64,000 bases of DNA, taken from positions 50,840,001-50,904,000 of the forward strand of contig OX597818.1 in assembly GCA_951406725.2 (NCBI GenBank), written 5' to 3'. Position numbers and translations under genes: made by a program. Origin of the DNA: Octopus vulgaris (lineage: Eukaryota). The notes beneath the pieces are model-generated. The model saw nothing but the letters and a program-made list of their open reading frames with translations. It was not told where the DNA came from and made no database searches. Position 1 is the stretch's first letter. Every line of letters begins with the position of its first letter. This document shows positions 7,979 to 60,449 of this stretch, one piece after another.

Positions 7979-8017
7979 AACCATAACAACAACTGCAAAA
8001 ACGACAACGACAACAAC

Positions 8018-9576
8018 ATGGACTTTAAATTCTTCAGGAAAACCGAACGTGAAATAAACGCCCTGATCTCAGCAGTGCAGATATTCAGTAAAGGTATTGG
8101 GATGGATTTGGGGACTAAAAAGTTTGGTTTACTTATAATACACAGAGGCAAGGTAGTAGCGCCCGATGATGTAGAACTACCTGACGGTGAGAAAATCAAG
8201 GATGTTGAGACTGATGGATATAAATATCTGGATATTTTGGAGTATTTTGGAGTATGACAAAATGAAGGAGAATTAGATGAAGGAAAGCTTTAGGCGGGAA
8301 TATCTCAGAAGAACCAAATTGATTATGACAAGTAGACTCAATGGGAAGAACAAGATCAGGGCAATGAACACATGGGTTGTTTCCTAAATGGACGAACGAG
8401 CTAGAGAAAATGGAGAGAAAAACCAGAAAAGCGATATTGATAGATTTATGTGCCTAGGAAGAAGTCAGAAGAGACCTCAAATGATGCAATGTCTGTGTTG
8501 CCAACGAGAATAACCGTCTGGGATGGTACATCAAACAGCAGATTGAAGCCTTACTTGCCACTGTAAGAAATAATAATATGATACCTTCCAAAAATGGCAC
8601 GCACCCAAAAACAATTAAGAAACAAGATGAAGAACAAAGAATAAACAATTGGAAAATGAAAGCAATACATGGGCAATACCTCAGAGAAGTCGAAGAGAAA
8701 AACAAAACAAACACCAGGAGATGGCTAAGAAAAAGTGACCTGAAAAGATACACTTGAGCACTGAATTGCAGCGCCCAGGAACAAGCTCTGAGAACTAATT
8801 ACACCAAGTTCCAAATAGATAAGAGCAGTGGATTGCCCCTTTGTAGGATGTGCGGTAGCAAAATTGAAACAATCTGACATATTGTGAGTGAGTGTAGCAA
8901 GCTGATGGCCCAAATGCACAAGAAAAGGAGGTACGATAATGTAGATAAGTTTATTCACTAGAGGCTGTGTGAAAAGTACGGCCTAGGTACAGCATGGAAA
9001 TGGTATAAACAAGAACCAGAGGGCTTCACTGAGAACAATGAATATATGATTCTGTTGGAATCTACAATCCAATGTGACTCCCTAATCCAGTGGTTTTCAA
9101 CCAGGGTTCTGCGGAACCTTAGGGTTCCGCCAGTACAGTCCAGGAGTTCCGCAAGAAGTTACCAAAACTGCTAAAATCGGCAGTAATTTTTAAGTCTCCT
9201 GTGCAGATATGTGTGCATAAGACTATTAAATTATTGCATAAGGGTTCCTCGAGCCAGTGGAATGCTATCTTGGGGTTCCGCTCCAGCAAAAAGTTTGAAA
9301 AGCACTGCCCTAATCGATGCTCGGAGACCATTGTTGTGGTAGATAAAGGAAAAAATAAAACCAGGATTATAGATATTGGTGTGGCAGTATCTATTGAGGA
9401 CAGCTAGGATTTTGCGATTGGTGCTTGGGTTTTGAGTGTCTTCCACGATAAGTTAACATCCAGCTACCAAAGCTTATAATTTGCAGAAAGATACCCTATG
9501 AGACCTCTGATAACTGGTTGATGTCTGCTTTCACAGAATCAACAAGAGCAAATATGACCAAGAGCTCTGGAAAATC

Positions 9577-10563: not shown

Positions 10564-10609
<46 letters not shown>

Positions 10610-10612
10610 ATA

Positions 10613-10891
10613 TATTTCGTGTTGGGGGGCATCTTTACTTTGTTATCTCCCCTATTTTCCTTCTCGTGTGTGACCCTTCTGTCTGAGTCAGTTGCCATGA
10701 TAGATCGTTAGCCACTACACACATTTTTGTCTCTCCTTGTTTCTCTCCTTGTTTTTTCTGTGTCCCTTTCTGAAGAAGAGTGTAGGCTCGAAACGTAAAA
10801 GACTTTTCTATTCCTAAGCGTTATACTAATACATTTGTTTGTTTTGTACACCACCTGTCTTCGTCTTTTGTTTTTTTCGTAAATTCTCCCT
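10613..10891 (+). mobile_element. Penelope-like (pLTR) fragment between (TA)n tracts
   Basis: Related copies at ~42000-42125, 49606-49800 (-), 59822-59985, 60100-60315 (-); carries a minimal hammerhead. Confidence 0.65.
10766..10801 (+). ncRNA. Minimal type-I hammerhead ribozyme motif, canonical core
   Basis: CTTT-CTGAAGA-A-GAGT gtag GCTC-GAAA-CG-TA-AAAG: stem I CTTT/AAAG, stem II GAGT/GCTC (one G-U), palindromic ACGT stem III. Confidence 0.65.
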
Positions 10892-27868: not shown

Positions 27869-28469
27869 TTAGGTTGTCAATGAAGTTCTTGTGGTTTCTA
27901 ACCTTTAAATTCAGATGCACATATCTAGGCTCAAAGAAAACTTCATCAATCGAAATAAACACCATCAGAATCAACACACTTTTGCAAACGCGAAACAAGT
28001 TTATTTATGCCAGTAGCGTAAAAATCCTGTGTTCTGGTGGCGATGAAGTCGTTGAAGGCGTGTTTGGCATCGTCTTGGTTTTTGAAGCATTTCTCACGCA
28101 GGAAGTTGTCGAGATGCTTGAAATAGTCACCGCTACAAAAATTATTGAACCACCATTGTACTGTACGTTCGTTAGTGGTTTCTGGGCCAAACGCATCGTT
28201 GATATCGTGAGCTGTTTCGGCAGCTTTTCGGCCTAGCTTGAACTGGAATTAAAAAAATGTGCAAACTTGCTTTTTGTCCATGTTGTATTCAACGTTCCGG
28301 AAAAAAGGCCTAGTTATTCAAAAAGAAAAAGAGTAACACGATTAGATAGAGCGAAAAACGGGCTTTAAAATAATATATAAAGTCAAAGTAATTTAACGAA
28401 AATTAATTTGAAAATATATAATTTAAAACCAAAATTTAAAATTCCACAAGAACTTTCTTGACTACCTAA
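27869..28469 (-). mobile_element. Internally deleted mariner transposon
   Basis: TIRs TTAGGTTGTCAATGAAGTTCTTGTGG / CCACAAGAACTTTCTTGACTACCTAA; minus-strand peptides GRKAAETAHDINDAFGPETTNERTVQWWF and FYATGINKLVSRLQKCVDSDG. Confidence 0.85.
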
Positions 28470-30107: not shown

Positions 30108-30974
30108 GTTGATACTTTTGTACATATTTGGTACATATTTAGTTCACAGTTCAAATGAGTGTAATAATAAAACACTAGTTGTTGTTTAACCCCAGCTCAA
30201 CCCTGACTGACAAAACTTGTGATCCAAAGCATTCCAGCCGTAAACATCACGTCTGTTTTCCTGTACACAAAAAACCCAAGAGTATATTATTCAATATGTT
30301 TTTTGCTAAGATCGTATTTGTGTGGTTTGATGGAGCTTTGGCTGCTATTTCTAGAAGTTCGAGCGACCAGCTAAAGATTTTCTTGTTGGCTTCCGTAAGA
30401 AGCAGCTCACCAATTCTAAGGCCCTTCAACTGATTATGTCCATTATTCTTTCAAATGTGCTTCATTTCGAAGAAAGAAATATAATTATTTAAATGTCTCG
30501 TCTTTCACTAACTTTTTCCTTCAGGCGTAATTATTACTATTGTTAGCTATAGAATACGTCGTTTACAATTATTTTAATTTTGTTTAAACGTCTTTATTAT
30601 ATATCACGTCGTGAAGTAAACATCAAATTTCTGTTTACCTGCTTCTCTTTTCATAAATAAGTGGTTTCTGTCAATAAGTTATTAACTCTATTGGCATATA
30701 TATACAAAATGGAGGCAGTTATAGTTGTCATATACAAATCTTTTTTTGGCATATACGAAATGGAAGCAGTTATAGTTGTCATATACAAATCTTTTTTCAG
30801 GGGTTTTACAAACGTAAATGAAAGGAAACGATTTCAACCGCTACTCGAACTAGTATTCGACAACAATACACACTTCGAGGAATAGACGGGAAATTAGTGT
30901 AGCCTGAGTTCTCAAGAAACATTATGATATAATAACAAACCACGTCCGAAAGCAGCTAATTTATTTAAAATATT

Positions 30975-31247
30975 CTGTTGTGTCTGGAGAGAGTCATTTT
31001 CTTTTTGTGCCTTATTATTTAACACACTCAACGGTAAAACTTCCAGTTTTTTTCTTATTTTTATTGTCCTAAAATTTTCGTTGCGGTCTTACAACCTTTT
31101 CGATAGTTTTGACTCTATTGAAAAGGTTGCAAGACGCAACGAAAATTATAAGGCACAAAAAGAAAATGACTCTCCCTAGACACAACAGAATATGCTTCAA
31201 CACACGAACTCATATAAAGAATCTTGCAAACCAAATCCAAAAACGAA
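30975..31247. mobile_element. Fold-back Penelope-like fragment with U3-A8 hammerhead motif
   Basis: Same family as 55029-55560; CTA-TTGAAAA-G-GTTGC aagac GCAAC-GAAA-AT-TA at 31115-31148. Confidence 0.65.
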
Positions 31248-31324
31248 ATGTTATTTAAAATATGAAATGTAGAAAACAATTCCTAATTCTTTCAGCTTTT
31301 CTGCTAAAATTTATTGCTATTCTT

Positions 31325-34868: not shown

Positions 34869-34874
<6 letters not shown>

Positions 34875-35213
34875 TTCTATATATCTATATATCACTTTAA
34901 TGTTAGTTAGAAAATGTTTGTTATATATTTTAACGTCTAAAGTGAGATTGACTGCAGTTAACAGTGAAAAAAAAAAGAACTTGTCTCTTATGGCGAAAGG
35001 TGTAAACACACCATATCTGCCATCGCTTTTTTCTAGTGGATTCCCAGATGCACGTTTCTGGCTTTTTAACCTTCCTCAATACGTATTCATATAGTATCTG
35101 ATCTGTTTAAAATAAATAAATAGAAATGATATAATGTCTAACAACAGATGAAGCAGTTACTCGACAACTTTAATTAAATATAAGGGACTCTGGACTCCCT
35201 CCATTTCTTCTTG

Positions 35214-35247
<34 letters not shown>

Positions 35248-35304
35248 ATAGTAAATAGGGTAATAAAAATAAATTATTATTACCAGTGACCTAGCACAAA
35301 AGAC

Positions 35305-35343
<39 letters not shown>

Positions 35344-35903: not shown

Positions 35904-36653
35904 GGTCCCGGGTTGATTCGGGGTTAACCACAGTAAGTAAGGTACTCAATACATAGCAGAGTAAAATTAATTTATTATATAGAAGGAGCTTCTACAGGAC
36001 TAGTACTGTTTCATTCAAGAGAAATCTTGAAGCTCCTTCTATATAATATATATATATATATATATATAAACTGCAGTACAGGATTAGCTGAGATGGTAAA
36101 CGTTTTTGATTTTCATTCCATTTCATGAATTCATCCCCTTTTTGTGTATCTAGCACTCGCTTCTTTATTTGGAAGCCTTTTAATGTATTTATATATGAAT
36201 AACGTATAGTCTAATGACTAATTCGTCTTTTGTGCTAGGTCACTGGTAATAATAATTTATTTTTATTACCCTATTTACTATGTTTCATATTTATATATAT
36301 ATATGACAAGAAGAAATGGAGGGAGTCCAGAGTCCCTTATATTTAATTAAAGTTGTCGAGTAACTGCTTCATCTGTTGTTAGACATTATATTATTTCTAT
36401 TTATTTATTTTAAACAGATCAGATACTATATGAATACGTATTGAGGAAGGTTAAAAAGCCAGAAACGTGCATCTGGGAATCCACTAGAGGAAAGCGATGG
36501 CGGAAATGGTGTTTTTACACTTTTCGCCATAAGAGACAGGTTCTTTTTTTTTTTTCACTGTTAACTGCAGTCAATCTCATTTTAGACGTTAAAATATATA
36601 ACAAACATTTTCTAACTAACATTAAAGTGATATATAGATATATAGAAAACATA
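34869..36653. repeat. Large nested inverted repeat: outer arms 34869-35307 and 36221-36653; inner IRs 35341-35813 and 35973-36048
   Basis: Arms are reverse complements with only scattered substitutions. Confidence 0.9.
35548..35617 (+). ncRNA. Type-I hammerhead ribozyme motif, canonical core, extended stem II
   Basis: TGG-CTGAAGA-AGGT..GCAA.ATATG loop CATAT.TTGC..ACCT-GAAA-CCTGCAGG-TA-CCA. Confidence 0.75.
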
Positions 36654-40753: not shown

Positions 40754-42254
40754 ATGGGTGTCTGTGTTTGTGTGTGTGTATGAATATGTACTTAAAAATG
40801 TATGTATATCTAACTATATGCTTTATCAAACGGAGTTTTTATGAAACACACTTTGAGAAAACAGTATAGGTTTCTATATCCTGCAACCTAACTGTATGCT
40901 ACCGCGGAGATCGTTAAAATAAATACCCGATTTTAATATAAATAAGTATTATGTCTGTTGCAACTGGCTAAAACCCATTAAAGCGGCGTTCCAGCGCGGT
41001 GACTGAAGTAAACAAACATGTAAAAGAGCATACATGTGAATGTTTGTATGTGGCTGTGCATACATGTGGGTGCGTGCGTATGGTTTCCGTCTATCAAATT
41101 TCCGTCACCTGAACCTAAGCCAGAAGTCTTCTTACAGCAGATTGGCCCTGTGGAATCGAGCATGGAACGCAGAATAAAACAGTTGCAATACAAACTTTTT
41201 AAAAACATTAAATTCCTATGAAAAAATTTTTCGCGATTCTTTAACCCTTCGTATTTCATGCTTACGTCAGTGATAACATAGATATAAAAACGTTGAATAA
41301 TTCATATCTCCATTCAATAGCATTTCAACGATGAGATATAAATATTAATGAAGAAGGTGGTCATCAAAATGCATTTCACTGATAGTTTAGCACTGAACTA
41401 AAATGAATATTCAATTCAGGTTTTATCTCAATAAATATGAACATCATTTAAAATAAACTGAACGTATTTTCGCTAACGTTAATTAGTTAAATGGAGTCTT
41501 TATTTCTTTGATAACTGTATTATTTCTTTTCGTTTAGAAAGTAAAGCAATATCGGTGATATATTTATAAATTTATGTATATTTCAATAAAAGGTTATCTG
41601 AAGATGTGGATTTGGGTATTTTTAATAGTAATGCACTTGTGATAATAAAGTATTTTATTGATAATGAGAATGGCATAATATAATCTATTTCGACATTATA
41701 ATCGATGTACATTTTACTATAAAGCTTGCTTATGAAAATATTATAGCAGTATATTTTAACGTCTAGTAAGATTATACAGGAGCGTATCTTACTCACCATA
41801 AAATACATTTTAATGATCATCAGGTACACACTTGAATGGAAAATAATATGGTATATATATATATATATATCTGTTAAAATGAGATGTCAGTATTATTTTC
41901 ATTTTTGCGTAATTTAGACAATATATTCACCGCAGCCTGTATGTGAATGTATATATATATATATAGAAACCGATTCGGGATATAGTAACCGATACAGTGT
42001 GAGACCCACCCCTCCGTCCGGCATTCGCCATGATAGATCGCTAGCCACTATACCTTCTTTCTATTTTCTCACCTTGTCTATTTCTGTGTCGAAGAGCGTA
42101 GGCTCAAAACGTAGAAGACTTTCTGGGTTGTTTTAATTGCTTTTAGAATAACTGAGAAAATTTTCTAAGGTTAGCACTAATCCCAGATATTTTCATGTTT
42201 CATTAGAGTTATCATATGAAGAAAAATGGAAAGGTCAGCTACTAGTTGTTGTTG

Positions 42255-42439: not shown

Positions 42440-43220
42440 CAGGGTTCGGTGAATATATCGTCGTCTAAATTACGCAAAAAATGAAACTAATACTAATATC
42501 TCAGTTTAACAGATATATTTACCAAAATTACATAAAAATATCTTGAAATACTAAAGAGTAAATTTATTCAGTAAAATCGCCATTGGTTTCAACTGCGGCC
42601 TCCAGATGACTTCGGGATCCCCTGTAACTCTTCTGGGTGGTTTCCTTGTTTAAGTTGGTTAATTCTGCGGTAATCCTTGCCTTCAGTCCATCTTTGATGT
42701 CACAAAGGGTTTTGTTGGTCCCTCGCTCAAATGCGCCCCACACATAATAATCAAGGGATTTGCAGTTTGGGGAGTTAGGTGGCCAGATTTTAGGAGTGAT
42801 GTGGTTACAGAAACTGTCTGACAACCAATTATGTGGCAAGGTGCAGAGTCCTGTTGCCAGACATAGTCTTCCGGCAGCCACCCTCTTGACCCAGGACAGC
42901 ACTACCTCCTCCAGGCATTTAATGTAGGCTTCCGTATTTAGTCTGAGGCCATGTGAGATGATGAATGGAAACGTTGCCATCACGAGTTATCACTTCAAAC
43001 ATCATGATGTTGATTGGATGTTTGATTTTTATCACCCTCAGTGTATGCACTGTCCTCAGGTTGATACCAAACACTCTGAAATGTTCGTATTGGAGCTTCC
43101 GGCGTGAATACCAAGCGGTACAGCATGTCGTTTCCAAATTTCTGGCGGAAGGGATTGCGTCATGGTGCTGTTTTACTCACAGACGGTGCCCAACTAACCC
43201 CACTATACTGTGTAGTGTAT
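42440..43220 (-). pseudogene. Decayed maT/DD37D-like Tc1/mariner transposase
   Basis: ORF 42564-42983: GLRLNTEAYIKCLEEVVLSWVKRVAAGR...WPPNSPNCKSLDYYVWG...LEAAVETNGDF; terminus TA|CAGGGT. Confidence 0.8.
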
Positions 43221-49513: not shown

Positions 49514-50095
49514 AGGCATAGCTGTGTGGCCAAGAAGTTCGCTTTACAACCATGTAGTTCTGGGTTCAGTCTCACTGCCCGGCACCTTAGGCGAGTATCT
49601 TTTTCTATAGGGAGAGTTTACGAAAAAAACAAAAGATGAAGACAGGTCGTGTATAAAACAAACAGATGTATTAGTATAACGCTCAGGAATAGAAAAAAGT
49701 CTTTTACGTTTCGAGCCTACGCTCTTCCACAGAAAGGGACACAGAAAAAACAAGGAGAGAAAAAGATGTGTGTAGTGGCCAACGATCTATCATGGCGACT
49801 GTAGCCCCATACAGACTGATGCAACGTGAGTGAATTTGGTAGATGAAAACTGTAAGGAAGCACGTCGTATGTGTGTGTGTGTTTGTGTGTTTTCTTAGCC
49901 TAGTGTTTGTCTTCCCAAACTACTCAACAGCCGGTTTTAGTTTGTTTACGTCCTCGTAATTTAGTGGTTCGATAAAAGAGATCGATAGAATAAGTAACAG
50001 ACTTCGGAAAAAAACTAGTGTCGAATATGTTCGATTAAGTTCTTCAAGGTGGTGCCCCAACATAGCCGCAGTCTAATGGATGAAACAAAGATTAA
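49514..50095 (+). mobile_element. Old SINE family B interrupted by a hammerhead-bearing fragment (49606-49800, minus strand)
   Basis: Family B resumes after the insert; insert reads CTTT-CTGTGGA-A-GAGC gtag GCTC-GAAA-CG-TA-AAAG on the minus strand (49701-49736). Confidence 0.7.
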
Positions 50096-54600: not shown

Positions 54601-54995
54601 ATGTAGGAGTGACTATGTGGTAAGTAGCTTGCTTACCAACCGCATGGTTCTGGGTTTAGTCCCACTGCGTGGCACCTTGGGCAAGTGTCTTCTACAATAG
54701 CCTCGGGCCGACCAAAGTCTTGCGAGTGGATTTGGTAGACGGAAACTGAAAGAAGCCCGTCATATATATGTATGTGTGTATATGTTTGTGTCTGTGTTTG
54801 TCCCCCCAGTGTCGCTTGACAACCGATGCTGGTGTGTTTACGTCCCCGTAACTTAGCGGTTCGGTAAAAGACACCGATAGAATAAGTACTAGGCTTACAA
54901 AGAATAAGTCCTTGGATCGTTTCGTTCGACTAAAAGCGGTGCTCCAACATGGCCGCAGTCAAATGACTGAAACAAGTAAAAGAATAAAAGAATAT
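54601..54995 (+). mobile_element. SINE family B, full length
   Basis: Family consensus match. Confidence 0.85.
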
Positions 54996-55028
54996 GTTAT
55001 AGGTTACCACCAATATAGATATCACAAC

Positions 55029-55560
55029 TGTTGTGTCTGGGGAGAGTCATTTTCTTTCTGTGCCTTATAATTTAACACACTCACCGGTAAAATTTCCACC
55101 ACTTATTCCTTGTTTTTATTTTCCTAAAATTTTCGTTGCGTCTTGCAACCTTTTCAAGAGTCAAGACTATTGAAAAGGTTGCAAGATGCAATGAAAATTT
55201 TAGGAAAATAAAAATAAGGAATAAGTGGTAGAAATTTTACCGGTGAGTGTGTTAAATTATAAGGCACTAAAAGAGAATGACTCTCCCCAGACACAACAGA
55301 ATATGCTTCAACACACGAACTCACATAAAAATTTTCGTTGCGTCTTGCAACCTTTTCAACAGTCTTAACTCTTGAAAAGGTTGCAAGACACAAAGAAAAT
55401 TTTAGGAAAATAAAAATAAGGAATAAGTGGTGGAAATTTTACCGGTGAGTGTGTTAAATTATAAGGCACTAAAAGAGAATGACTCTCCCCAGACACAACA
55501 GAATATGCTTCAACACACGAACTCACATAAAGAATCTTGCAAACCAAATCCAAAAACAAG
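55029..55560. mobile_element. Inverted/tandem array of a Penelope-like unit with four U3-A8 hammerhead motifs
   Basis: Motifs at 55123-55160 (-), 55167-55203 (+), 55327-55366 (-), 55368-55406 (+). Confidence 0.7.
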
Positions 55561-59627: not shown

Positions 59628-60449
59628 CAGCGTTCTAGGGTTCTGCAAAAGGTTCCTAGGGGTTCCACGAAAAAGAGTGAGATAAGCTAATGCTAATTTC
59701 ATAATCGTAATATTACTATACATGCACAACATATTATTGGCTGTTGTAATTTAGACATCATCCTATTTAACCTATTATGTTATCAAAAGAATACAACAAT
59801 CATTGGTGATATATATATATATCCTTTATTTTCTCTCTTTCTTTCTTTCTGAATTCCTTTCTGTGGAAGAGCGTAGGCTCGAAACGTTAAAGACTTTTTC
59901 ACTTCCCGAGCGTTAAACTAATACATCTGTTTGTTGTCTATACCACCTGTCTTCGTCTTTTGTTTTTTTTTGTGAATTCTCCCTATATATATATATATAT
60001 ATAGTAATGTTTATATTCCAACATAACGTGGCAGTCCTGTAAAGGACAATGTTACTGTTGCTCTTCTCGACATACATATATATATATACATATATATATG
60101 TATATTCCAAAACAAAAACGAAGAAAAAGCAGAAGAAAAAACAACAAGGCGAGGACGTGGTACATGCGAAGTATTAACAGACGCTCAGGGAAGGAAAGAA
60201 AGGTAGTTTTACGTTTCGAGCAAAGTTCTTCTTCAGAAACAGGAGACAGAGGAAAGAGCAAGAGAAAAAGAAGACGGAGTGGGAAAAAATCGCTAACGAT
60301 CGACATGTGGTTACATTAGATTACATATATGTAAGATATTTACTGCGTGAACTACGATGAAAAGAAATATGAGAAAGATATGGCGTGTAATTTCTTTTAT
60401 TTAATTTATTTTAAGGGTTACGCAAGGGTAAAACGTTTGAGAAACACTG
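59628..60449. mobile_element. Old hAT-type MITE with nested insertions, itself inside a decayed family A SINE
   Basis: CAGCGTTCT...GAGAAACACTG termini; TSD TTCTACAC / CTCTACAC; GGGTTC subterminal motifs as in the 9088 element. Confidence 0.65.
60206..60240 (-). ncRNA. Minimal hammerhead motif, canonical core
   Basis: GTTT-CTGAAGA-A-GAAC ttt GCTC-GAAA-CG-TA-AAAC; one mismatch in stem II. Confidence 0.55.

What the first reader, a model, noticed from the sequence alone, without database searches (positions are those of the whole stretch)
55029..55560. U3-A8 hammerhead family arranged as an inverted-forward-inverted-forward array
Seen: four copies of (CTA)-TTGAAAA-G-GTTGC aagac GCAAC-GAAA-AT-TT-TAG in alternating orientation. 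The two plus-strand units are about 200 bp apart, and an independent locus of the same family lies at 30975-31247. U3 and A8 are retained in all copies. Inference: the two same-strand copies could form a dimeric hammerhead through the AATT palindrome and release a unit of about 200 nt, the size range of non-LTR retrozyme monomers. Stem I is only 3 bp and several copies carry decay mutations.
Basis: partly seen in the sequence, partly recalled or inferred. Interest (0 to 1): 0.75.

Follow-up and report, generated by a model that had tools for sequence, protein, structure and literature searches.

The report
Penelope retrotransposon ends with decayed hammerheads
These are leftover end-pieces of a Penelope-type jumping gene, probably in an octopus-like genome; they carry an already described minimal self-cutting RNA motif that is decaying and is blocked by its own mirror copy, so the locus is ordinary transposon debris and not a small circular-RNA element.

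Summary
Four hammerhead-core copies lie in −,+,−,+ order at 55028–55557 and two more at 30974–31250. The retrozyme reading is not supported.

Both loci have the published terminal anatomy of endonuclease-bearing Penelope-like elements (PLEs): a tail-less inverted pseudo-LTR joined head-to-head, through a quasi-palindrome, to a direct pseudo-LTR with a 3′ tail. Locus 2 has an exact 13-bp target-site duplication. The two loci share both end points within 1 and 6 nt.

The U3-A8 core, 3-bp stem I, extra base before stem II, AU stem III and opposite-strand pairs are all reported for PLE minimal hammerheads (Cervera & De la Peña 2014).

Only 1 of 6 copies passes a full descriptor. U3/A8 retention is expected by chance (about 0.65). 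Of the two cuts needed to release the 202-nt unit, one cannot form. The other costs about 72 kcal/mol, because every copy sits beside its own antisense copy.

No RT or endonuclease ORF was found, so PLE membership rests on anatomy. Verdict: a new member of a known kind; low interest.

The parts
55028..55162 (-). Arm A: inverted, tail-less pseudo-LTR copy (135 bp). Hammerhead U3 at 55157, N17 at 55127; the stem I pair next to the core is mismatched. Ends at +23 from the putative ATG (55050, minus strand).
55158..55169 (.). Junction J1: 12-nt quasi-palindromic spacer of the head-to-head join, in the opposite orientation to J2 and J3 (5 of 12 mismatches to J2 read directly, 2 of 12 as reverse complement).
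55165..55299 (+). Arm B: direct pseudo-LTR copy with the only complete minimal hammerhead (stem I 55167-55169 / 55201-55203, U3 55170, N17 55200; stem II closed by G-U after CpG decay). Putative ORF start ATG at 55277.
55300..55329 (+). Partial tail after arm B (+24 to +53 from the putative ATG), broken in an A-run at the junction with arm C.
55328..55363 (-). Arm C: 36-bp inverted copy of the hammerhead only (U3 55359), ending at or next to the predicted cut site (N17 55329); it forms a palindromic head on arm D.
55360..55371 (.). Junction J2: 12-nt quasi-palindromic spacer.
55368..55501 (+). Arm D: second direct pseudo-LTR copy, 202 nt after B. Hammerhead decayed (U3 55372; stem II 3 of 5 pairs). 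Shares two derived bases with B. ATG at 55479.
55502..55557 (+). 3' tail (56 nt), present on the direct end only; ends in an A/C-rich stretch at +79 from the putative ATG. Inferred to be the start of the element's ORF.
   Evidence: PLE tail definition
30961..30973 (+). Locus 2, left copy of an exact 13-bp A/T-rich target-site duplication.
   Evidence: 10 of 20,000 random flank pairs share 13 bp or more
30974..31108 (-). Locus 2 arm E: inverted, tail-less pseudo-LTR; hammerhead with U4C (U3 31103); ends at +24 from the ATG (30997, minus strand).
31104..31117 (.). Junction J3: the same spacer as J2 with 2 extra nt, same orientation as J2.
31113..31250 (+). Locus 2 arm F plus tail: direct copy (U3 31118) with a 59-nt deletion starting in helix III at a 5-nt microhomology; ATG 31166; tail ends at +85.
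31251..31263 (+). Locus 2, right copy of the 13-bp target-site duplication.

Best explanation
Both loci are ORF-less terminal remnants (solo pseudo-LTR insertions) of one family of endonuclease-bearing Penelope-like retrotransposon, and the hammerhead is that family's pLTR ribozyme, now decaying. Likely working, with the status of each step: (1) An autonomous element elsewhere supplied RT and a GIY-YIG nickase (inferred; not in this window). (2) An A/T-rich target was cut with a stagger (shown at locus 2 by the 13-bp duplication; not shown at locus 1). (3) Reverse transcription started at two fixed A/C-rich sites inside the start of the ORF, at about +23 and +79 to +85, so one arm lacks the tail and the other has it (shared end points are shown; the mechanism is inferred from the Anolis Poseidon in vitro work). 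(4) The two arms were joined head-to-head at a short palindrome just upstream of the hammerhead, by self-priming or annealing (the junction is shown three times; the mechanism is inferred). A source pLTR with a palindromic head (arm C, spacer, start of D) explains both spacer orientations without a separate flip, depending on which palindrome arm the join used (inference). (5) At locus 1 a second direct unit was added, either as a partial tandem at insertion or as a later 202-bp local duplication (B and D share two derived bases; the two routes are not told apart). (6) Since then the copies have decayed without visible protection of the ribozyme. A read-through RNA would fold into long double-stranded hairpins and not into hammerheads (computed). 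In the ancestral element the ribozyme probably cut tandem precursor RNA weakly, as a dimer or with protein help (literature on other PLEs; not shown here).
For: Inverted tail-less arm plus direct tailed arm at both loci. The arm ends agree within 1 nt and the tail ends within 6 nt between the two loci, and both ends are 86-93% A/C. Exact 13-bp TSD at locus 2, matched by 10 of 20,000 random flank pairs. Published PLE anatomy matches point by point: an inverted pLTR overlapping the direct one, a one-sided tail, pLTR plus tail holding the first ORF codons, 18- and 38-bp palindromes at pLTR heads, two direct plus one inverted pLTR, 8-10 bp TSDs, microhomology deletions, and head-to-head palindromic junctions (PMC3846280; PMC8557442 Fig. 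2 text). The tail equals the sequence between two RT start sites in an AC-rich stem-loop, with AT-rich targets (PMC11167929). The same 7-nt U3-A8 core occurs in a PLE-associated S. mansoni motif, and the AU helix III with U17 and a 3-bp helix I occurs in a PLE-associated oyster motif. Opposite-strand pairs 100-700 bp apart are reported. The frame from the ATG is open in both loci, and 2 of 2 inter-locus differences in it are synonymous (weak). Decay is not avoiding the ribozyme: 3 of 31 sites vary inside and 5 of 99 outside among A, B and D. An octopus genome is reported to hold 190 PLE families covering 6.83% (PMC13282606 supplement).
Against: No RT or GIY-YIG domain in 145 scanned ORFs of the window (145 of 213 non-low-complexity ORFs of 62 aa or more). 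The putative N-terminal peptide found no relative in three searches, so the ATG and the ORF are inferred. No significant TSD at locus 1 (6 bp exact; gapped score reached by 8% of random pairs). The tail is 56-62 nt, longer than the 30-40 nt quoted for PLEs. The extra base before stem II is G, whereas the published consensus gives H (not G), although listed exceptions exist. Only two loci could be examined; no eukaryotic genome collection was available.
Confidence: 0.85

Rival explanations
1. Non-LTR retrozyme: the two same-strand hammerheads form a dimer and release a 202-nt monomer that circularises and is re-inserted.
For: The cut-to-cut distance is 202 nt on both strands, within the 150-450 bp range of retrozyme repeats. 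A 2026 preprint argues that retrozymes arise from PLE pLTRs by local tandem amplification, so B-D could be the first step of such a birth.
Against: One of the two dimer sites cannot form on either strand, and the other costs +17 to +141 kcal/mol. D is decayed. There are only two units and none at locus 2. The motif is minimal, whereas retrozymes carry canonical type I ribozymes. It fails the preprint's criterion of two consecutive complete motifs. Even 8 of 9 predicted retrozyme dimers did not cleave in that study.
Confidence: 0.05
2. A fixed non-autonomous fold-back derivative of a PLE: one palindromic master copy (inverted arm, spacer, direct arm, tail) is copied as a unit in trans, so the shared junction is inherited and not re-made at each insertion. 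This is a sub-case of the best explanation with a different origin for the junction.
For: All three junctions use the same 12-nt spacer, including its asymmetric bases. J2 and J3 have the same orientation relative to the tail. pLTRs alone suffice for mobilisation in trans in Adineta.
Against: J1 has the opposite orientation. A fully palindromic RNA with 135-bp arms would be a poor template (inference). No arm-specific variants shared across the two loci were found among 21 variable columns.
Confidence: 0.3
3. MITE or fold-back DNA transposon with long terminal inverted repeats; the hammerhead-like motif is incidental.
For: 135-bp inverted arms at 94% complementarity; Rfam's best matches here are sub-threshold hairpin miRNA models.
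Against: The TSD at locus 2 encloses an asymmetric unit with a one-sided tail, so the ends are not inverted repeats. The motif passes a hammerhead descriptor that 0 of 20,000 shuffles pass and matches published PLE motifs.
Confidence: 0.04
4. The second unit at locus 1 (55328-55529) is an assembly artefact, such as two haplotypes joined in tandem or mis-resolved inverted repeats.
For: PLE tandem and inverted structures are known to trouble assemblies; B and D share two derived bases.
Against: The two units differ at 9 of 202 sites, 5 of them because the spacer is reversed, which simple allelic divergence would not give.
Confidence: 0.07

Closest known systems
Minimal hammerheads of metazoan PLEs, U3-A8 variant of Schistosoma mansoni Cercyon (Cervera & De la Peña 2014, PMC4209133)
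   Same: The same 7-nt U3-A8 core as S. mansoni(4), a 3-bp helix I, an unpaired base between 9 and 10.1, a palindromic 15.2-16.2 pair, U17, and nearby copies on opposite strands.
   Different: The host is probably an octopod; the extra base is G; each copy is directly adjacent to its own antisense copy; no ORF is linked.
Adineta vaga Penelope Pen2a/Pen3a terminal structures (Arkhipova et al. 2013, PMC3846280)
   Same: An inverted pLTR overlapping a direct pLTR, two direct plus one inverted pLTR, a one-sided tail, palindromic pLTR heads, a short TSD, and microhomology deletions.
   Different: Here almost nothing lies between the direct pLTRs (30 nt). The tail is 56-62 nt rather than 31. The palindromic head is about 80 bp end to end (36-bp arms) and consists of the ribozyme itself.
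Anolis Poseidon PAc (Frangieh et al. 2024, PMC11167929)
   Same: Two fixed end points in A/C-rich sequence at the ORF start, an A/T-rich target, and a hammerhead in the pLTR-ORF junction region.
   Different: In PAc the ORF begins inside the ribozyme and the core is C3-G8; here the putative ATG is 77 nt after the cut site and the core is U3-A8. No activity has been shown here.
Non-LTR retrozymes (Cervera & De la Peña 2020, PMC7229834; Li et al. 2026 preprint 10.64898/2026.07.22.740005)
   Same: A type I hammerhead in a unit of about 200 nt repeated once in tandem; low GC.
   Different: The ribozyme is minimal rather than canonical, the architecture is inverted with a tail and TSD, there are only two units, and the second is dead and both are antisense-paired.

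Membership tests
PLE minimal type I hammerhead (min-HHR) | Core with C3-G8 or U3-A8 pair, then GAAA and NUH | tested here: met
   Complete in copy B; the core is intact in 5 of 6 copies (E has U4C); the U3-A8 variant is published.
PLE minimal type I hammerhead (min-HHR) | Unpaired base between 9 and 10.1; G10.1-C11.1; palindromic 15.2-16.2; short helix I | tested here: met
   The extra base is present in 6 of 6 (it is G; the published consensus is H). G10.1-C11.1 is present in 4 of 6 copies, G-U in B and broken in D. The AU palindrome is present in 6 of 6. A 3-bp helix I is present in B and E.
PLE minimal type I hammerhead (min-HHR) | Self-cleavage, as a dimer or protein-assisted | not testable with these tools
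   Folding predicts no active form in the genomic context; no assay was possible.
Endonuclease-bearing Penelope-like element | Direct pLTR(s) with an adjacent inverted 5'-truncated copy, joined head-to-head | tested here: met
   Both loci; definition.
Endonuclease-bearing Penelope-like element | One-sided 3' tail (30-40 nt quoted) | tested here: met
   Present at both loci, but 56-62 nt long.
Endonuclease-bearing Penelope-like element | Short TSD at an A/T-rich target | tested here: inconclusive
   Exact 13 bp at locus 2; not significant at locus 1.
Endonuclease-bearing Penelope-like element | pLTR plus tail contain the first codons of the ORF | tested here: inconclusive
   Open frame at both loci with 2 of 2 synonymous differences; no protein relative found.
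Endonuclease-bearing Penelope-like element | Linked PLE-type RT plus GIY-YIG ORF (also decides the clade) | not testable with these tools
   The loci are ORF-less remnants, and none was found in 145 scanned window ORFs. The partner must be sought genome-wide, and no eukaryotic genome collection was available. Motif terms were absent from the Craig 2021 PLE supplement, so it is not their Octopus Naiad or Hydra-1 entry as far as exact terms show.
Non-LTR retrozyme | At least two consecutive head-to-tail units, each with a complete hammerhead | tested here: not met
   Unit D lacks 2 of 5 stem II pairs and the core-proximal stem I pair; criterion.
Non-LTR retrozyme | Canonical type I hammerhead (helix I about 6 bp, loop 1-loop 2 contacts) | tested here: not met
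   Helix I is 3 bp at most; definition. Rfam found no hammerhead here, but it also missed the C3-G8 minimal motif at 10770, so that negative carries no weight.
Non-LTR retrozyme | Expression as a monomeric circular RNA | not testable with these tools
   No RNA data.
MITE / TIR DNA transposon | Both termini are inverted repeats directly flanked by the TSD | tested here: not met
   The right TSD copy follows a 62-nt tail that has no counterpart on the left.

The most novel reading that the evidence does not exclude
The source element natively carries an antisense copy of its ribozyme directly upstream (arm C plus spacer), which locks the hammerhead off unless transcription starts inside the spacer. 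That antisense arm is a cDNA fossil of a 5' cleavage product, because it begins at the predicted cut site. The locus 2 deletion also starts in helix III. These breakpoints would then be genomic evidence that a U3-A8 minimal hammerhead cuts in vivo, which has not been shown for the PLE studied in vitro (no reads ended at the cut site). The reversible spacer would let genome-wide copies decide between self-priming and two-ended priming for PLE inverted insertions. Support is thin: 2 of 2 internal breakpoints touch the cut region, against null rates of 2 of 12 and 13 of 101 microhomology sites (about 2% jointly, post hoc), and the region is an A/T palindrome that attracts breakpoints anyway.
Probability: 0.1. 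Interest if true: 0.55.

Novelty: new member of a known kind. Interest (0 to 1): 0.2.

Why it matters
As found, it adds a probable cephalopod example of the U3-A8 minimal hammerhead, which the papers I read report only from Schistosoma (one search for octopus plus hammerhead plus Penelope returned only Craig 2021). That is a small extension of range. Its one useful property is a marked, asymmetric spacer at a recurrent head-to-head junction. Across many genomic copies, the spacer could test how PLE inverted insertions form, which the literature leaves open. It is not evidence for a new circular RNA.

Tried and rejected
Rfam: no hammerhead family among the 150 listed of 159 matches in the window, nor in arm B alone. 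This is uninformative, because the C3-G8 minimal motif at 10770 was also missed. The miRNA-model hits are sub-threshold matches to the hairpin.

Protein searches with the putative ORF start: none scored (1 candidate, 0 hits in 1.84 billion, no usable hit). All are weak negatives for a 30-41 aa query.

Pfam on 145 of 213 window ORFs (those left out were mostly SINE-derived): no RT or GIY-YIG; one Mos1 HTH. A search with a retroelement-like fragment at 8485-8754 gave nothing.

Scan of bacterial and archaeal genomes for the core motif: 0 matches.

Exact motif terms were absent from the supplements of Craig 2021 and of the 2026 Octopus repeat paper (it holds no sequences). One supplementary file of Cervera 2014 could not be searched, and the bioRxiv supplements were closed; either could list this family. 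The Lünse et al. 2017 paper on dimeric PLE hammerheads was not held and is recalled only.

TSD at locus 1: rejected as not significant. TATA-like element: it lies only 14-19 nt before the ATG, so I do not claim a promoter. U3/A8 retention as proof of selection: rejected. No tRNA genes were found in the window. No similarity was found between this family and the second hammerhead family.

Full report
OBSERVATION. The sequence at 55028-55557 holds two 135-bp arms in inverted orientation (55028-55162 and 55165-55299, 94% complementary), a 202-bp direct repeat (55126-55327 and 55328-55529, 96%) and a 36-bp inverted pair (55328-55363 and 55368-55403). BLAST and nhmmer find the same family at 30970-31250 and nowhere else in the window. 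Six hammerhead cores were read out, with U3 at 55157(-, A), 55170(+, B), 55359(-, C), 55372(+, D), 31103(-, E) and 31118(+, F).

STATE OF THE COPIES. Only B is complete. A and D have a mismatch at the stem I pair next to the core. D keeps 3 of 5 stem II pairs. C ends at the cut site. F has a 59-nt deletion starting in helix III, and E has U4C. U3 and A8 are kept in 6 of 6, but 25 of 31 core positions are invariant, so two given positions survive with probability about 0.65. Among A, B and D, 3 of 31 sites vary inside the ribozyme and 5 of 99 outside, so decay does not avoid it.

ANATOMY. Each locus is an inverted arm without a tail, joined head-to-head to a direct arm with a tail. Measured from a putative ATG (55277, 55479, 31166), the inverted arms end at +23 and +24 and the tailed ends at +79 and +85; both end regions are 86-93% A/C. 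Locus 2 is bounded by an exact 13-bp A/T-rich duplication (30961-30973 and 31251-31263), which 10 of 20,000 random flank pairs match; locus 1 has no significant one. All three junctions use the same 12-nt quasi-palindromic spacer directly upstream of the core. J1 is reversed relative to J2 and J3 (5 of 12 mismatches direct, 2 of 12 as reverse complement). B and D share two derived bases absent from A, E and F. The frame from the ATG is open at both loci and both differences between them are synonymous, but three protein searches found no relative and Pfam found no RT or GIY-YIG in 145 of 213 window ORFs. The host is probably an octopod. A translation of the neighbouring SINE hit one Argonauta hians protein; my recognition of the SINE as octopus-type is from memory.

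CAN IT RELEASE A 200-NT UNIT? Both cuts are needed. On the plus strand, the D-core/B-cut site lacks 3 pairs. The B-core/D-cut site costs +71.9 kcal/mol over the minimum-energy fold of the locus, and +17 to +23 if the RNA starts at B. On the minus strand, one site lacks 3 of 12 pairs and the other costs +44 to +141. Stem II has pairing probability 0.000 in 6 of 6 copies in read-through context, against 0.89-1.0 for arm B alone. These are equilibrium predictions. Co-transcriptional folding or protein help, as shown for the Anolis element, could rescue one cut but not the decayed second site.

MECHANISM. The best reading is a pair of ORF-less pseudo-LTR insertions of a Penelope-like retrotransposon. 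Shown: the arms, tail, shared end points, recurrent junction, one TSD and decay. Inferred: trans-acting RT and nickase; two internal RT start sites producing the tail (after Frangieh et al., PMC11167929, parts 1-2 of 4 read); and joining at the palindrome by self-priming or annealing. If the source pLTR begins with the palindrome C-spacer-D, then 55028-55201 is simply an inverted whole pLTR (10 of 174 mismatches to the reverse complement of 55328-55501) overlapping the direct copy by one palindrome arm, and locus 2 used the other arm. That explains both spacer orientations. A later local duplication followed by a flip of the spacer fits equally well.

COMPARISON WITH WHAT IS KNOWN. Cervera & De la Peña 2014 (PMC4209133; parts 1-2 of 4 and part of one supplement read) report the U3-A8 variant in about 1,300 S. 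mansoni motifs, the extra base before stem II, the palindromic helix III, opposite-strand pairs 100-700 bp apart, and low dimer activity. Their alignment has a PLE-linked motif with the same 7-nt core, and 22 of 44 rows I read have a helix I of 3 bp or less (counted by eye). Arkhipova et al. 2013 (PMC3846280; parts 1-3 of 5 and passages) describe the inverted pLTR overlapping the direct one, the one-sided tail, ORF codons in pLTR and tail, 18- and 38-bp palindromic pLTR heads, two direct plus one inverted pLTR, 8-10 bp TSDs and palindromic head-to-head junctions. Craig et al. 2021 (PMC8557442; passages and supplement searches) give the same scheme. Retrozymes are head-to-tail repeats with canonical ribozymes (PMC7229834, passages). 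A 2026 preprint (parts 1-3 of 5) derives them from pLTRs and requires two consecutive complete motifs, which this locus lacks. An Octopus vulgaris annotation lists 190 PLE families covering 6.83% of the genome (PMC13282606, passages and supplement). So the thing looks and works like a PLE terminal remnant and meets the structural membership tests; the ORF test could not be run, and the clade is unknown.

AGAINST MY READING. There is no linked ORF and no protein hit, locus 1 has no TSD, the tail is longer than the 30-40 nt quoted, the extra core base is G, and only two loci were available.

NOVELTY AND VERDICT. One search for octopus, hammerhead ribozyme and Penelope together returned only Craig 2021, and a search on the U3-A8 term found it only in Cervera 2014. 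A cephalopod U3-A8 family may therefore be undescribed within this library, but it is a new member of a known kind. The boldest reading not excluded is that arm C is a cDNA fossil of an in vivo cut and locks the ribozyme. Both internal breakpoints touch the cut region, against null rates of 2 of 12 and 13 of 101, but this is post hoc and the site is an A/T palindrome; probability about 0.1. Overall interest is 0.2.

Noticed in passing
window 10606-10890 (+), core at 10770; relatives at 49610-49801 (-), 59830-59983 (+), 42027-42122 (+), 60192-60274 (-): A second, unrelated family with a standard C3-G8 minimal hammerhead, flanked by (TA)n runs as in microsatellite-targeting PLEs. The copy at 10770 passes the descriptor; the core is altered in most relatives.
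   Followed up: partly
window 55158-55169 versus 55360-55371 and 31104-31117: The asymmetric junction spacer occurs in both orientations (flip and flop), a possible marker for how PLE inverted junctions form.
   Followed up: partly
window 55326-55331 and 31141-31148: Both internal breakpoints of the family fall in helix III or at the predicted cut site; about 2% jointly under a crude microhomology null, post hoc.
   Followed up: partly
window 34869-35308 and 36221-36653: A 440-bp inverted repeat pair (95% identical) about 900 bp apart, next to a (TA)n run; possibly a TIR element or another inverted insertion.
   Followed up: no
window about 8000-9350 (+): Broken non-LTR retrotransposon remnant with a C-terminal CCHC-type motif resembling restriction-like endonuclease elements such as Dong/R4 (label recalled, not tested); no Pfam or protein hit.
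   Followed up: partly
window 27949-28248 (-) and 42567-42986 (-): Mariner-type transposase fragments: a Mos1 HTH match at E 2e-11 for the first; the second is judged by eye only.
   Followed up: no
window 54605-54994 and many other sites: An abundant SINE family of about 400 bp lies next to both loci; its translation hit one Argonauta hians protein, which points to an octopod host.
   Followed up: partly
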